Source: Chloroflexota bacterium
Lineage (GTDB): Bacteria; Chloroflexota; Dehalococcoidia; JACPQK01
Reading direction: 5' to 3'
NCBI GenBank assembly: GCA_016190505.1
Contig: JACPQM010000021.1
Span: forward strand, 1-59,152
DNA: 59,152 nt
Shown: one piece after another, positions 26,989 to 29,985 of the stretch
Numbering within the stretch: position 1 is the stretch's first letter
How the letters are laid out: each line of letters opens with the position of its first letter
Translations under genes and position numbers: made by a program
Notes under the pieces: model-generated
The model's input: the letters and a program-made list of their open reading frames with translations, nothing else
Database searches by the model: none
Told to the model about the DNA's origin: nothing

Positions 26989-27501
26989 ATGGTACAGCAT
27001 CAACTGTCCACGTTTTCCCAGGCCCTGGTCGCAGCCCTGGAGGACTGCGGGGCCACCCACGTCGTGTCGCTGCCCTCCACCGAGACCAGCGGCCTCTACG
27101 AGGTGCTGGCCCAGTCCAGGCTGCGCCTGGTCCCGGTGTGCCGGGAGGGCGAGGCCATCGGCATCGCCGCCGGGCTGTACTGCGGGGGACAGAAGCCCGT
27201 GGTCATGGTGCAGAACACCGGCTTCATGGAGTCCGGTGACTCCGTGCGGGGTCTGGCCATCCCGTTGCGCATCCCTATGCCGCTCTACATCGGCTATCGA
27301 GGCTACAAGCCCGGCGGGCAGCCGATGACAGATACCGCCGGCATCTATCTGGAGCCCATTCTCAAGGCCTGGGGCATCAAGTACTACCTGGTGGGGCCGG
27401 ATGGTGACATCGGGCTTGTCCACACGGGCTTCCAGGAGGCTTGGGAGACCAACCGGCCGGTGGCCGTGCTGCTGGCCGCGGAACAGGAGACACTGACATG
27501 A
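26989..27501 (+). CDS. Split TPP-dependent 2-oxoacid decarboxylase, alpha subunit (sulfopyruvate/phosphonopyruvate decarboxylase ComD-like)
   Basis: 170 aa; TPP N-terminal (pyrimidine-binding) domain; stop overlaps the next start. Confidence 0.72.
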   Translation: MVQHQLSTFSQALVAALEDCGATHVVSLPSTETSGLYEVLAQSRLRLVPVCREGEAIGIAAGLYCGGQKPVVMVQNTGFMESGDSVRGLAIPLRIPMPLYIGYRGYKPGGQPMTDTAGIYLEPILKAWGIKYYLVGPDGDIGLVHTGFQEAWETNRPVAVLLAAEQETLT

Positions 27502-28067
27502 TGAACACCCTGGACGCCCTTAAGGTTCTGGCCCAGCACCGCAAGAACGAGGTGGTGATCGCCGCCATGACCTCGAACCAGGCGTGGCAGATGATCTCCT
27601 CGCACGAGCTTGACCTTCCCCTGAGTGGCTGCATGGGCAAGGCCTCTTCCCTGGGCCTGGGGCTGGCGCTGGCTCGCCCCGACATCCAGGTCTGGGTCGT
27701 GGACGGGGATGGCAGCCTGCTCAACAACCTGGGAACCCTGGTGACCATCGGCAACCTGGGCCCGCCTAACCTGGTCCACTTCGTACTGCACAACGGCGTC
27801 TACCAGGTGAGCGGAGGCCAGCCCCTTCCTGGGGAAGGCAAATTCACCTTTTGCGACCTGGCGCGGGCTGCGGGCTATGCCAGCACCCACGTCGTTGACG
27901 CCCTGGAAGATCTCGAAACGCGGCTGCCGGCCATGCTCAGCGCTCCGAGGCCAGCCCTGGTCTGCCTCGACGTCAAGCCCAGCAAGGAGCGGATAAGCTC
28001 GTCCATGGCGTCCACGGCCAAGGCCCTGCCCCGCGTCAAGGCCATCCTGGAACGGTCCGTTTCGTAG
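27498..28067 (+). CDS. Split TPP-dependent 2-oxoacid decarboxylase, beta subunit (ComE-like)
   Basis: Start at 'MMNTLDAL' (27498); TPP-binding motif 'GDGSLLNNLGTLVTIGN'. Confidence 0.72.
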   Translation: MMNTLDALKVLAQHRKNEVVIAAMTSNQAWQMISSHELDLPLSGCMGKASSLGLGLALARPDIQVWVVDGDGSLLNNLGTLVTIGNLGPPNLVHFVLHNGVYQVSGGQPLPGEGKFTFCDLARAAGYASTHVVDALEDLETRLPAMLSAPRPALVCLDVKPSKERISSSMASTAKALPRVKAILERSVS

Positions 28068-28091
28068 GGGCGGTCCCTTCGGGACCCCTAC
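28064..28091. repeat. REP hairpin 'gtaggggcggtcccttcgggacccctac'
   Basis: Palindrome between the decarboxylase and the AOR. Confidence 0.5.
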
Positions 28092-28116
28092 TAGCATAGT
28101 TTTGAGGAGGAAATAG

Positions 28117-29985
28117 ATGGCAGTCGGCGGTTATGCTGGCAAGATGCTGCGGGTGGACCTTTCGTCGGGCACCTTTTCCGACGTCACGTTCCCCGAAGAG
28201 ACCCTGCGCAAGTACATCGGGGGCACTGGCATCGGCGTGCGCATCCTCTATGACGAGGTCCCACCCTCGCTAAGCTGGGACCACCCCGACAACCGCTTCA
28301 TCCTGGCCACGGGGCCGTTGGGCGGCACCCGGGTCAAGGGATCGGGGACCATCTCCATTGTCACCAAGGGGGCCATGACCAATGGCTGCACCTCGACCCA
28401 GGGCAACGGCTTCCTGGGGGCGTACCTCAAGTTCTGCGGCTACGACGGCCTGATCATTCAGGGCCAGGCGCCGCACCTGATGTACCTGGCCATCACCGAC
28501 AAGGGGCCTGAGCTGCGCGACGCCCGCCACCTGGCCGGGAAGGACACCTGGGAGCAGGAGGACCTGATCAAGGCGGAGCTGGGCTTCACCGAGCACCAGA
28601 TGAGCGTGCACGGCATCGGCCCCGCCGGGGAGAACCTGGTCCGCTTCGCCGGTGTCATCGGCGACCGGGGCCACGCCGCCGCCCACAACGGCTCGGGGGC
28701 GGTGCTCGGTGCTAAGCGGCTCAAGGCCATCGCCGTAGCCCGGGGCAAGAAGCGCCTGGCGGTGCGGGACGCCCCCCACCTGGTCCAGGCCTCGGACGAG
28801 ATGTTCGAGACCATCAAGAACCACCCCATGTGGAGCCGCGTGTACAACTACGGCATGCTGTGGGGGCTTACCGAGGGCAAGGCCACCAAGACCCAGGTGG
28901 TCAAGAACTACACCACCAACATCGTTACCACGGACGACGAGAAGATCAAGAAGTTCGAGGGCCCCTACATCCGCGAGCACTACCAGCCCAAGCCCCACAA
29001 CTGCTGGGCCTGCCAGATGCACCACTGCCACCTCATTACCATCACCGAGGGCCCCTACAAGGGCTTCGTGGGTGAGGAGCCTGAGGCCGAGGGCCTGTCC
29101 GCCTTTGGCCCCCTCATCGGCAACGAGGACGGCGCGGGCATGATCGTGCTCAACAACGAGGTGGACCGCCTGGGCATGGACATCAACGAGGCGGGCTGGA
29201 TTATCGCCGGCACCATGGAGATGTACGAGCGGGGCCTGCTCACCCTGGAGGACACCGACGGCCTGGAGCTGCGCTGGGGGAACGTGGAGGCGGTACGCGG
29301 GCTAATCCGCAAGATAGCCCACCGCCAGGGTATCGGCAACATCCTGGCCGAGGGGGCCAAGCGCGCCTCGGAGAAGCTGGGCAAGGAAGCCAGGGAGATA
29401 TTCATCTACACCATGAAGGGGAACTCGCCGCGCACCCACGACCACCGGGTGCGCTGGATCGAGATGATGGAGAGCTGCATCTCCAACACCGGCACGCTGG
29501 AGGCGGACGTTATGTCAAACCCCGCCCAACTCGGGGTCGAGCCTATCAAGGACGCCTTCAACGGGGAGCAGGTGTCCACCGTCCTGGCCAAGATCCGCGG
29601 CGGCTTCACGGTGGTTGACTCCCTGGGCATCTGCAAGTTCACCAACCGCGAGGTGCCCGCCCTCATCGTCCGCATGCTGAATGCCGGCACAGGCTGGGAC
29701 TTCACCTGGGACGAGGCCATGCAGATGGGCCGCCGGGTGGTCAACCTGATGCGGGCCTACAACATCCAGTGCGGCCTCGGCCCGGCCGTGGAGGGCCCCG
29801 GCCCCCGCTACGGCTCCACGCCCACCGATGGCGCGGCCCAGGGGAAGAGCATCCGCCCCGTATGGCCGGACATGGTCCGCAACTTCCACCAGCTTATGGG
29901 CTGGGACCCGGCCACCGGCAAGCCCACCAAAGAGACCCTGACCAAGCTGGGCCTGGAGGAGGTCATCCCCACGCTGTGGGGATAG
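28117..29985 (+). CDS. aor: Tungsten-containing aldehyde:ferredoxin oxidoreductase (AOR family)
   Basis: 622 aa; AOR N-terminal 'YAGKMLRVDLSSG', 'GGTGIGVRILYDEV'; colinear with the AOR family throughout. Confidence 0.9.
   Translation: MAVGGYAGKMLRVDLSSGTFSDVTFPEETLRKYIGGTGIGVRILYDEVPPSLSWDHPDNRFILATGPLGGTRVKGSGTISIVTKGAMTNGCTSTQGNGFLGAYLKFCGYDGLIIQGQAPHLMYLAITDKGPELRDARHLAGKDTWEQEDLIKAELGFTEHQMSVHGIGPAGENLVRFAGVIGDRGHAAAHNGSGAVLGAKRLKAIAVARGKKRLAVRDAPHLVQASDEMFETIKNHPMWSRVYNYGMLWGLTEGKATKTQVVKNYTTNIVTTDDEKIKKFEGPYIREHYQPKPHNCWACQMHHCHLITITEGPYKGFVGEEPEAEGLSAFGPLIGNEDGAGMIVLNNEVDRLGMDINEAGWIIAGTMEMYERGLLTLEDTDGLELRWGNVEAVRGLIRKIAHRQGIGNILAEGAKRASEKLGKEAREIFIYTMKGNSPRTHDHRVRWIEMMESCISNTGTLEADVMSNPAQLGVEPIKDAFNGEQVSTVLAKIRGGFTVVDSLGICKFTNREVPALIVRMLNAGTGWDFTWDEAMQMGRRVVNLMRAYNIQCGLGPAVEGPGPRYGSTPTDGAAQGKSIRPVWPDMVRNFHQLMGWDPATGKPTKETLTKLGLEEVIPTLWG

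What the first reader, a model, noticed from the sequence alone, without database searches (positions are those of the whole stretch)
26989..29985. Split TPP-dependent 2-oxoacid decarboxylase directly upstream of a tungsten aldehyde:ferredoxin oxidoreductase
Seen in sequence:
- A ComD/ComE-like alpha/beta decarboxylase pair (overlapping stop/start) sits 50 nt upstream of AOR.
Inference: a 2-oxoacid -> aldehyde -> carboxylate (Fd-reducing) two-step pathway. If the decarboxylase really is a sulfopyruvate or phosphonopyruvate decarboxylase, this would be an oxidative sulfoacetaldehyde or phosphonoacetaldehyde route. It could equally act on aryl- or branched-chain pyruvates.
Basis: inference. Interest (0 to 1): 0.5.

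Follow-up and report, generated by a model that had tools for sequence, protein, structure and literature searches.

The report
Split decarboxylase plus AOR-family operon
A groundwater Chloroflexi genome carries a two-subunit thiamine-dependent decarboxylase directly in front of a tungsten-type aldehyde oxidoreductase under one strong promoter, probably a two-step route from a 2-oxoacid to a carboxylate; the gene order is specific to this lineage and nothing points to sulfonate or phosphonate chemistry.

Summary
Alpha (26989-27501) and beta (27498-28067, ATGA overlap) are the two halves of a thiamine-diphosphate enzyme. An AOR/WOR-family gene (28117-29985) follows after 49 nt.

The pair is neither ComDE nor phosphonopyruvate decarboxylase. 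It scores far below both NCBIfam cut-offs, branches apart from bona fide ComE, AepY and RhiF, and has no sulfonate or PEP-mutase genes nearby.

The adjacency is not conserved. Only 2 of 80 species-level genome loci with a beta homologue have an AOR within 6 kb. The closest relatives of both the pair and the AOR keep them at separate loci.

There is one independent sign of coupling. In the sister species the pair and the AOR orthologue lie apart, yet each sits behind the same unusual promoter, TTGACAGCCCAAGCTG-N7-TATAATTCAGGCGTTC. That motif occurs nowhere else in 241 million metagenome records. In the window the AOR has lost its own copy and sits behind the pair's.

Proteobacterial plasmids carry alpha-beta-aldehyde dehydrogenase operons, an NAD-dependent analogue.

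The AOR clade is uncharacterised and lacks three of four residues typical of aldehyde-oxidising members.

Verdict: a plausible, lineage-specific oxoacid-to-aldehyde-to-acid module with unknown substrate, of moderate interest.

The parts
26899..26937 (+). Promoter: TTGACA-17 nt-TATAAT (12 of 12 consensus positions) with conserved flanking positions, TTGACAGCCCAAGCTG-N7-TATAATTCAGGCGTTC
   Evidence: Found by the promoter scan and unique in the 59-kb window, with 0.00 matches expected by chance. The same 32 fixed positions lie upstream of the sister-species pair (L003) and of the sister-species AOR (L088). The core motif has only 3 matches in the JGI metagenome collection, all at those two loci.
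26989..27501 (+). Alpha subunit (170 aa): the pyrimidine-binding (N-terminal type) ThDP domain, carrying the catalytic Glu53
   Evidence: PF02776 at 7.9e-10. TIGR03845 ComD scores 87 bits against a cut-off of 148. It is 26% identical to RhiE, PDB 9iz3_A. Glu53 is conserved in at least 90% of 59 alpha homologues.
27498..28067 (+). Beta subunit (189 aa): the diphosphate-binding (C-terminal type) ThDP domain with a GDG-X26-N motif. Its start codon overlaps the alpha stop codon (ATGA).
   Evidence: PF02775 at 1.4e-16. TIGR03297 Ppd scores 115 bits against 312, and TIGR03846 ComE scores 97 against 221. It is 33% identical to RhiF, 9iz3_B. G70 D71 G72 S73 are invariant and N99 nearly so in 21 homologues.
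28064..28090 (+). REP-like GC-rich palindrome GTAGGGGCGGTCCCTTCGGGACCCCTAC in the beta-AOR gap, overlapping the beta stop codon
   Evidence: Sequence. The centroid fold is an 11-bp interrupted stem at -16.2 kcal/mol, but the 76-nt region folds no better than shuffles (z = 0.05). It has no adjacent U-run and was not called as a terminator. It is one of about a dozen GTAGGGGCG...CCCCTAC-type palindromes in the window.
28117..29985 (+). Single-subunit AOR/WOR-family oxidoreductase (622 aa) preceded by a GAGGAGG Shine-Dalgarno sequence. No WorS, WorN or WorX gene is adjacent, so it has a Class I-like architecture.
   Evidence: Pfam AFOR_N plus AFOR_C. It is 33% identical to PfAOR. The CxxCxxxxC...C cysteines, both pterin motifs and Glu313 are kept. 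Thr243 is Met, Tyr427 is His and His448 is Glu.
29989..30017 (+). REP-like palindrome just after the AOR stop codon; likely the 3' end of the transcription unit
   Evidence: Sequence GTACGGGGCGCGATTAATCGCACCCCTAC. Its function as a 3' end is inferred.

Best explanation
This is a three-gene transcription unit: promoter at 26899-26937, then alpha, beta and the AOR.

Alpha and beta assemble into a heteromeric ThDP-dependent enzyme that lacks a middle domain. It belongs to an uncharacterised, mostly Chloroflexota clade of the ComDE / Ppd-RhiEF / LumKL superfamily. It non-oxidatively decarboxylates a 2-oxoacid to the aldehyde one carbon shorter.

The downstream single-subunit WOR (Class I-like) oxidises that aldehyde to the carboxylate and passes two electrons through its [4Fe-4S] cluster to a ferredoxin encoded elsewhere.

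The substrate is unknown. It is more likely an ordinary oxoacid derived from an amino acid or a hydroxyacid than sulfopyruvate or phosphonopyruvate.

The three-gene order is a recent, lineage-specific arrangement of two units that already shared a promoter/operator. I think fusion more likely than the reverse.

Shown: gene structure, domains, cofactor motifs, promoter identity, and synteny or its absence. Inferred: co-transcription, decarboxylase activity, aldehyde oxidation, metal identity, and direction of flux.
For: 1. The genes are on the same strand. The 49-nt gap is filled by a palindrome and a Shine-Dalgarno sequence. No promoter-like site lies between P and the AOR.
2. In the sister species (83-86% aa identity) the AOR has its own copy of P and a leader of about 100 nt. 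In the window, homology to that locus starts only 12 nt before the AOR ATG.
3. The promoters of the sister pair and the sister AOR agree at all 32 fixed positions. Their 5 mismatches all fall in a 7-nt spacer block, which is the pattern of constraint rather than a fresh copy.
4. The motif core occurs only 3 times in 241 M metagenome records. All three are at those two loci, and two come from the same metagenome.
5. The catalytic Glu53 and the GDG-X26-N motif are conserved.
6. The WOR keeps its Fe-S cysteines, pterin motifs and Glu313.
7. An independent alpha-beta-AOR operon exists in a Thermodesulfobacteriota MAG, L084. Its beta falls in a different clade and its AOR is a different type.
8. 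Alpha-beta-NAD-aldehyde dehydrogenase operons occur on Bradyrhizobium and Sphingobium plasmids. In Ruegeria an aminotransferase-alpha-beta unit lies next to an ALDH gene.
9. PfAOR is most active on aldehydes from decarboxylated 2-ketoacids (PMC13328260).
Against: - The adjacency is not conserved. Only 2 of 80 species-level genome loci have an AOR within 6 kb. By my rough estimate that is about what chance gives in genomes with many WOR paralogues.
- The beta relatives P0002, P0005, P0012, P0017 and P0018 have no AOR nearby.
- The AOR relatives P0122, P0124 and P0125 have no ThDP pair nearby. P0123 has none within the 112 nt of contig upstream of it.
- Many family members sit among housekeeping genes (asnS, gatA, ubiD/X/A, nuo), as judged from cluster representatives.
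- The WOR clade replaces Thr243, Tyr427 and His448, residues reported as nearly invariant in aldehyde-oxidising WORs (PMC13328260).
- A stable palindrome sits between beta and the AOR.
- No ferredoxin, tungstate transporter or aminotransferase lies in the operon or among the 40 window ORFs scanned.
- There are no expression or enzyme data.
Confidence: 0.5

Rival explanations
1. The juxtaposition is fortuitous. The ThDP pair has its own role, possibly housekeeping and unknown in Chloroflexota, and a rearrangement happened to place it in front of one of the genome's many WOR paralogues. The shared promoter would then be simply a strong promoter of this lineage.
For: The adjacency is absent in all close relatives of both partners. 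Only 2 of 80 genome loci have an AOR nearby. The MAG has at least three WOR paralogues and the family exceeds 4600 hits at E <= 1e-50. The region is rearrangement-prone: it holds a 415-bp direct repeat and a low-GC insert and many REP-like elements. The family often sits in housekeeping contexts.
Against: The promoter motif is not generic. It occurs once in the 59-kb window and only at these two loci in the metagenome collection and in about 60 kb of sister DNA held here. Its mismatches cluster in one spacer block. Independent alpha-beta-AOR and alpha-beta-ALDH operons exist elsewhere.
Confidence: 0.3
2. This is a sulfonate or phosphonate route. Alpha-beta is a sulfopyruvate or phosphonopyruvate decarboxylase, and the WOR oxidises sulfoacetaldehyde or phosphonoacetaldehyde.
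For: The best named HMM hits are ComD, ComE and Ppd, and the nearest solved structure is RhiEF. One WOR, PfASOR/WOR5, has been proposed to act on aliphatic sulfonates and phosphonates (PMC13328260).
Against: All three HMM scores are far below their curated cut-offs. The window's beta is separated from the ComE/AepY/RhiF group in the tree. Real comDE sits with TRAP transporter, hisD-like, SDR and alcohol dehydrogenase genes, which I read as a sulfonate-degradation cluster. Real aepY sits with PEP mutase and AEP aminotransferase. None of these is among the 40 window ORFs scanned. The window WOR is only distantly related to WOR5 (3e-51 against 2e-85 for PfAOR).
Confidence: 0.04
3. The WOR is not an aldehyde oxidase. 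Its altered active site (Met243, His427, Glu448) serves a different reaction, or it runs in reverse from acid to aldehyde with alpha-beta acting as a carboligase. The pair and the WOR would then be linked by chemistry other than decarboxylation followed by oxidation.
For: Three of four residues typical of aldehyde-oxidising WORs are replaced across the whole clade. One WOR, BamB, is known to have chemistry unrelated to aldehydes, and only 5 of 92 clades have a defined role. AORs can reduce acids (PMC9295118 abstract).
Against: Glu313, the Fe-S ligands and the pterin motifs are intact. All four characterised Class I WORs oxidise aldehydes. All characterised members of the split ThDP family are decarboxylases.
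Confidence: 0.12

Closest known systems
RhiEF, the heteromeric phosphonopyruvate decarboxylase of Bacillus subtilis (PDB 9IZ3/9IZ4), and fused Ppd/AepY
   Same: It has a two-subunit ThDP enzyme with TPP_N and TPP_C halves and no middle domain. It is the nearest solved structure (beta 8e-17, alpha 2e-12).
   Different: Identity is only 33% (beta) and 26% (alpha). The Ppd HMM scores 115 bits against a cut-off of 312. No PEP mutase or AEP aminotransferase is nearby, unlike real aepY. The window's beta lies on a separate branch of the tree.
ComDE sulfopyruvate decarboxylase (coenzyme M biosynthesis; bacterial sulfonate degradation)
   Same: Same split architecture and subunit sizes, with overlapping alpha and beta genes.
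   Different: Scores are 87/148 and 97/221 bits. It does not cluster with Leisingera ComE. Real comDE sits in a cluster with TRAP transporter, hisD-like, SDR, alcohol dehydrogenase and alpha-hydroxy-acid oxidase genes. The window has none of these.
LumK/LumL, the ThDP-dependent quinoxaline-carboxylate decarboxylase of riboflavin catabolism (PMC12746152)
   Same: It shows that split 'TPP-binding protein' pairs act on substrates other than sulfo- or phosphonopyruvate, and that they work as 1:1 complexes.
Alpha-beta-aldehyde dehydrogenase operons on proteobacterial plasmids (Bradyrhizobium guangzhouense NZ_CP030054, Sphingobium AP027312); Ruegeria conchae aminotransferase-alpha-beta next to an ALDH gene
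   Same: A split ThDP pair is immediately followed by, or lies next to, an aldehyde-oxidising enzyme. Upstream are oxoacid-forming enzymes: alpha-hydroxy-acid oxidase, amidase or FAD oxidoreductases, or an aminotransferase. The logic is the same decarboxylase-then-aldehyde-oxidation sequence.
   Different: The oxidising enzyme is an NAD(P)-dependent ALDH, not a pterin/Fe-S WOR. Beta identity is 34-43%. These operons are uncharacterised and known only from annotation.
Phenylalanine degradation in Aromatoleum aromaticum (phenylpyruvate decarboxylase plus tungsten AOR), and PfAOR acting on aldehydes derived from 2-ketoacids
   Same: A ThDP decarboxylase feeds an aldehyde to a tungsten AOR (PMC6365974 abstract; PMC13328260).
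   Different: From my own knowledge, the Aromatoleum decarboxylase is a full-length, single-chain PDC/IpdC-type enzyme. Its AOR is a three-subunit NAD-linked Class III enzyme. Here the decarboxylase is split and the WOR is single-subunit with a divergent active site.

Membership tests
ThDP-dependent decarboxylase superfamily (split form without middle domain) | Separate Pyr (TPP_N) and PP (TPP_C) domains, the catalytic Glu that activates ThDP, and a GDG-X(24-27)-N(N) metal/diphosphate motif | tested here: met
   PF02776 and PF02775 are both above their gathering scores. Glu53 is conserved in at least 90% of 59 alphas. G70-D71-G72 are invariant and N99 nearly so.
ComDE sulfopyruvate decarboxylase | Score above the curated equivalog cut-offs of TIGR03845 (alpha) and TIGR03846 (beta) | tested here: not met
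   87.1 bits against 147.95, and 97.2 bits against 221.5.
ComDE sulfopyruvate decarboxylase | Groups with bona fide ComE in a tree; sulfonate or coenzyme M genes nearby | tested here: not met
   In the NJ tree Leisingera ComE groups with AepY, RhiF and others, away from the Chloroflexota clade. The window has no such neighbours, in contrast.
Phosphonopyruvate decarboxylase (Ppd/AepY/RhiEF) | Score above the TIGR03297 cut-off; adjacency to PEP mutase | tested here: not met
   Alpha scores 44 bits and beta 115.5 bits, each against the cut-off of 312.5. No PEP mutase is among the 40 scanned ORFs of the window, whereas real aepY follows aepX.
IpdC/PDC-type full-length 2-oxoacid decarboxylases | A single chain of about 550 aa with a central domain between the Pyr and PP domains | tested here: not met
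   There are two chains of 170 and 189 aa. The best full-length PDB hits are benzoylformate decarboxylases at only about 2e-5.
AOR/WOR family (pterin-containing large subunit WorL) | AFOR_N plus AFOR_C domains, four Cys for a [4Fe-4S] cluster, and two DxxGxD/C pterin motifs | tested here: met
   Pfam 7e-61 and 5e-85. Cys288, 291 and 494 are aligned, with the third Cys shifted by one position (CWACQMHHC). DRLGMD and DSLGIC are present.
Aldehyde-oxidising WORs (PfAOR-like active site) | Thr243, Glu313, Tyr427 and His448 around the metal site (PMC13328260) | tested here: not met
   Only Glu313 is kept. Thr243 is Met, Tyr427 is His and His448 is Glu. In the Chloroflexota clade members in the alignment, His427 is universal, position 448 is Glu in all but one (Gln), and position 243 varies between Met and Thr. 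This rests on a MAFFT alignment at 33% identity, so the exact register around position 448 is not certain.
Class I WOR (single subunit, ferredoxin-linked) | No adjacent WorS (4x[4Fe-4S]), WorN or WorABC genes | tested here: met
   The neighbours are the ThDP pair upstream and two unknown minus-strand ORFs downstream. The only ThiS-like gene is 9 kb away, next to a DMSO-reductase-family enzyme.
Tungsten (rather than molybdenum) enzyme | Tungstate uptake genes (tupABC) in the genome; metal analysis | not testable with these tools
   No Tup/Mod-type transporter is among the 40 window ORFs scanned. A relative (L091) has an SBP_bac_11/permease/ATPase set just upstream of a WOR paralogue. The whole genome was not available.
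Operon (single transcript alpha-beta-AOR) | Co-transcription | not testable with these tools
   Indirect evidence only: same strand, 49-nt gap, no promoter-like site before the AOR, no canonical terminator. A REP-like palindrome lies in the gap.

The most novel reading that the evidence does not exclude
The split ThDP pair and this non-canonical WOR clade (Met243/His427/Glu448) form a dedicated, co-regulated module in a Chloroflexota lineage. It is controlled through a lineage-specific operator embedded in a consensus promoter. The module would oxidise an unusual 2-oxoacid to a carboxylate while reducing ferredoxin without CoA, a route to low-potential electrons independent of 2-oxoacid:ferredoxin oxidoreductases. 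It could feed the 11-subunit complex I that related ThDP pairs sit beside. The WOR would be tuned to a substrate not yet known for the family.
Probability: 0.15. Interest if true: 0.6.

Novelty: new variant of a known kind. Interest (0 to 1): 0.35.

Why it matters
If the coupling is real, it assigns a first physiological partner to two large uncharacterised groups. One is a mostly Chloroflexota clade of split ThDP enzymes, with more than 2400 homologues at E <= 0.001. The other is a Chloroflexota WOR clade within a family where only 5 of 92 clades have a defined role.

It would also show that the decarboxylase-plus-aldehyde-oxidiser logic has a ferredoxin-linked version using split enzymes. 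The NAD-linked version is seen in proteobacterial alpha-beta-ALDH operons.

The shared promoter offers a concrete handle. It defines a two-locus regulon in a sister species that can be tested by transcriptomics.

If the coupling is not real, the finding is an ordinary lineage-specific gene juxtaposition.

Tried and rejected
- **AOR exact-sequence look-up:** the AOR was not on record. The beta subunit was, but only on contigs of about 2 kb.
- **Riboswitch or leader RNA:** no Rfam family matched in window 26500-32400, apart from a chance miRNA hit at E = 0.4, nor in the sister AOR leader. A Moco/Wco or TPP riboswitch is therefore rejected.
- **Intrinsic terminator between beta and AOR:** none was called. 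The region folds no better than shuffles (z = 0.05). The hairpin is a member of a REP-like family, not a dedicated attenuator.
- **Second AOR at 31600-32163:** I first read this as a remnant of an ancestral AOR. It is in fact a 92%-identical duplicate of the window's own AOR 3' end plus downstream sequence.
- **Deeper conservation of the promoter motif:** it is not found upstream of more distant alpha-beta pairs or anywhere in the other loci held at that point.
- **Literature:** no paper in the library holds both 'sulfopyruvate decarboxylase' and 'aldehyde ferredoxin oxidoreductase', or both SAR202 and sulfopyruvate. The RhiEF structure paper is not held, so substrate-binding residues could not be compared.
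- **PDB search with AOR residues 401-528 alone:** no hit.
- **Crude ORF clustering of neighbours:** it merged alpha with beta and produced an antisense-ORF cluster (c1). I used it only for coarse context.
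Full report
**Origin of the window.** The window is a 59,152-bp contig of a Chloroflexi metagenome-assembled genome. The beta protein is on record as 'MAG: thiamine pyrophosphate-binding protein [Chloroflexi bacterium]' on a contig of exactly this length. The AOR carries locus tag HYY01_03200.

**1. Observation.**
- ORFs at 26989-27501 (170 aa) and 28117-29985 (622 aa) are as stated.
- The second ThDP ORF begins at the ATG at 27498, which overlaps the alpha stop codon as ATGA, and ends at 28067 (189 aa).
- Pfam gives TPP_enzyme_N for alpha, TPP_enzyme_C for beta, and AFOR_N plus AFOR_C for the third gene.
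- The beta-AOR gap is 49 nt.
- Two independent read-level assemblies of the same strain (L001, L002) show the identical arrangement.

**2. Transcription signals.**
- A perfect sigma-70-type promoter (TTGACA, 17 nt, TATAAT; 12 of 12) lies at 26899-26927, 62 nt upstream of alpha. It follows the end of a cytochrome c maturation operon (ccmE, ccmF, ccmC and a small 65-aa ORF that I read as ccmD-like from its sequence).
- No other promoter-like site precedes the AOR, and no terminator was called in the gap.
- The gap contains the palindrome GTAGGGGCGGTCCCTTCGGGACCCCTAC. It is one of about a dozen REP-like palindromes of the GTAGGGGCG...CCCCTAC type in this window.
- The gap region folds no better than shuffled sequence.
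- No Rfam family matches the leaders.
- Co-transcription is therefore likely but unproven.

**3. What the decarboxylase is.**
- Alpha and beta hit the ComD, ComE and Ppd equivalog models far below their cut-offs: 87/148, 97/221 and 115/312 bits.
- The closest solved structure is the heteromeric phosphonopyruvate decarboxylase RhiEF (9iz3), at 33% (beta) and 26% (alpha) identity.
- The catalytic Glu (Glu53) and the GDG-X26-N motif are conserved across the family, so an active ThDP enzyme is expected.
- I obtained bona fide references from annotated plasmids. Leisingera comDE sits in a cluster with TRAP transporter, hisD-like, SDR, alcohol dehydrogenase and alpha-hydroxy-acid oxidase genes, which I read as a sulfonate-degradation cluster. 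Mycetohabitans aepY sits between PEP mutase and AEP aminotransferase.
- In an NJ tree of 110 beta sequences, ComE, AepY and RhiF fall together with two unnamed plasmid pairs on a branch well separated from the window's clade. The tree has no bootstrap support values.
- The window's beta sits in a Chloroflexota clade with its sister-species orthologue and with pairs that lie next to nuo operons.
- None of the 40 window ORFs scanned belongs to sulfonate or phosphonate metabolism.
- The family also includes LumK/LumL, a heterocycle decarboxylase, so its substrate range is broad.
- Conclusion: this is an uncharacterised clade of split ThDP decarboxylases. It is not ComDE, Ppd or IpdC.

**4. What the AOR is.**
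- It is 33% identical to P. furiosus AOR.
- It keeps the Fe-S cysteines, both pterin motifs and Glu313.
- In the alignment, Thr243 is Met, Tyr427 is His and His448 is Glu. Among the 50-86% identical Chloroflexota relatives aligned, His427 is universal, position 448 is Glu in all but one (Gln), and position 243 varies between Met and Thr.
- A 2026 classification paper names these four residues as varying very little in aldehyde-oxidising WORs. It also notes that only 5 of 92 WOR clades have a defined role (PMC13328260).
- No WorS, WorN or WorABC gene is adjacent, so the architecture is Class I-like.
- The same MAG has at least two more paralogues, and the family gives more than 4600 hits at E <= 1e-50.
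- 'Tungsten' and 'aldehyde' are therefore family-level inferences.

**5. Is the adjacency conserved?** It is not.
- Of 80 species-level genome loci with a beta homologue, only L084 (AOR immediately downstream) and L030 (AOR 3 kb downstream) have an AOR within 6 kb.
- Close beta relatives lie in other contexts: next to hisF/H and a two-component system (P0002, 83% identity), directly upstream of 11-subunit nuo operons (P0017, P0018, L008), or beside SBP_bac_5 genes (P0012).
- AOR orthologues at 86, 63 and 62% identity have no ThDP pair nearby. The 79% orthologue has none within the 112 nt of contig upstream of it.
- Many family members sit among housekeeping genes, as I judged by inspecting cluster representatives.
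- By my rough estimate, 2 of 80 is about what chance gives in genomes with many WOR paralogues.

**6. Evidence that the link is nevertheless meaningful.**
- Comparison with the sister species shows that pair homology covers window 26896-28050 and AOR homology covers 28105-29981.
- Downstream synteny is kept: a 131-aa ORF, a 226-aa ORF and CopCD. The AOR locus is therefore orthologous.
- In the sister, the AOR has a promoter and a leader of about 100 nt. That promoter has the same 32 fixed positions as the one in front of the sister's ThDP pair at a different locus and in front of the window's pair: TTGACAGCCCAAGCTG-N7-TATAATTCAGGCGTTC.
- The two sister copies differ at 5 positions, all inside the 7-nt spacer block. 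This argues for constraint on the flanks, such as an operator, rather than a recent copy.
- The window's spacer matches the sister pair's spacer at 6 of 7 positions and the sister AOR's at only 3 of 7. The window's P is therefore the pair's promoter, and the AOR's own promoter has been lost.
- A scan of 241 M metagenome records for the core motif returned three stretches: two at the sister pair and one at the sister AOR. Two of them come from the same metagenome.
- The two sister loci have the same GC content and share short REP-like repeats.
- The motif occurs once in the window. It is absent upstream of more distant pairs.
- I read this as two units of one small regulon. In the window's lineage they are joined into one operon, which I think more likely than the sister having split them.

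**7. Independent precedents.**
- L084, a Thermodesulfobacteriota MAG, has alpha, beta and an AOR in tight succession. Its beta falls in a different clade and its AOR retains His448.
- On plasmids, Bradyrhizobium and Sphingobium carry alpha-beta-aldehyde dehydrogenase operons. Amidase and FAD oxidoreductases, or an alpha-hydroxy-acid oxidase, lie upstream.
- Ruegeria has aminotransferase-alpha-beta next to an ALDH gene.
- These show the same decarboxylation-then-oxidation logic with an NAD-dependent oxidiser.

**8. Verdict.**
- The generic two-step pathway is the best explanation (about 0.5).
- A fortuitous juxtaposition remains a serious rival (about 0.3).
- A non-aldehyde or reversed WOR chemistry is possible (about 0.12).
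- The sulfonate or phosphonate reading is unlikely (about 0.04).
- This is a new variant of a known kind of module and of moderate interest. The most useful lead is the shared promoter.

Noticed in passing
window 29666-30078 and 31775-32127; insert 30079-31774: The last 320 nt of the AOR plus about 95 nt downstream are repeated 2.1 kb further on, at 92% and 88% identity. The copies flank a low-GC stretch (0.586 over 30001-32000) holding two minus-strand ORFs: 30161-30841, with a weak Peptidase_M10 hit, and 30853-31482, with no hit. The ORF at 31600-32163 with an AFOR_C hit is this duplicate, not a second AOR. The layout resembles a Campbell-type integration or a duplication-insertion scar.
   Followed up: partly
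window 11593, 12534, 12935, 19382, 19450, 28064, 29989, 32099, 32160, 32221, 41947 (start positions): A family of REP-like GC-rich palindromes, GTAGGGGCG...CGCCCCTAC, with variable centres. Most lie between genes. Related copies occur in the sister-species loci L003 and L088.
   Followed up: partly
L005 7513-8570, L008, L099 6513-7570: In three related Chloroflexota, the split ThDP pair lies about 90 nt upstream of, and on the same strand as, an 11-subunit nuo operon. No nuoE/F/G appears in the stretch shown. No explanation was pursued.
   Followed up: no
L014, L015, L018, L032, L034, L036, L044, L053, L054, L057 and others (positions about 5400-7700): Many Dehalococcoidia and SAR202 loci have alpha, beta and a second, divergent beta paralogue (33-44% identity). 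A small ORF of about 95 aa often lies between the two betas. Another group has beta next to genes I read as ubiD, ubiA and ubiX, with no recognisable alpha.
   Followed up: no
window 28117-29985 (residues 246, 441 and 461-462 of the protein): The Chloroflexota WOR clade replaces PfAOR Thr243, Tyr427 and His448 with Met/Thr, His and Glu. It has a CxxCxxHHC motif in place of CxxCxxxC, and one member (P0197) lacks the third Cys.
   Followed up: partly
L003 5534-9308 (sister species): A response regulator (GerE type), a GAF/PAS histidine kinase and a second response regulator lie directly upstream of the sister-species ThDP pair. A partial second copy of the GCCCAAGC box lies about 65 nt upstream of its promoter. 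These are candidate regulators of the shared promoter.
   Followed up: no
window 39091-41950; L090 5693-7866: A ThiS/MoaD-like gene lies immediately upstream of a DMSO-reductase-family molybdopterin oxidoreductase in the window. A ThiS-like gene also directly precedes a 63%-identical WOR in L090, so it is WorX-like.
   Followed up: no
window 12632-15478, 16300-18905, 33858-35858: Copper-handling genes surround the locus: a CsoR-type repressor, a CopA P-type ATPase, YHS-domain proteins with a MacB-type ABC system, and CopC-CopD.
   Followed up: no
window 26861-26890: A tandem heptamer, (CCCGTAG)x3-4, lies between the end of the ccm operon and the promoter.
   Followed up: no
L101 5968-6558 (Sphingobium plasmid AP027312): The beta subunit of a split ThDP enzyme is annotated as 'aldehyde dehydrogenase' in the public record, apparently by transfer from the true ALDH gene that follows it.
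   Followed up: no
window 266-1705 (minus strand): An HpaB-family protein is encoded here, either a 4-hydroxyphenylacetate 3-hydroxylase or, from my own knowledge of the family, a 4-hydroxybutyryl-CoA dehydratase. If it is the former, arylacetate would be a plausible product of an arylpyruvate decarboxylase/AOR route. It lies 25 kb away, and no link was tested.
   Followed up: no
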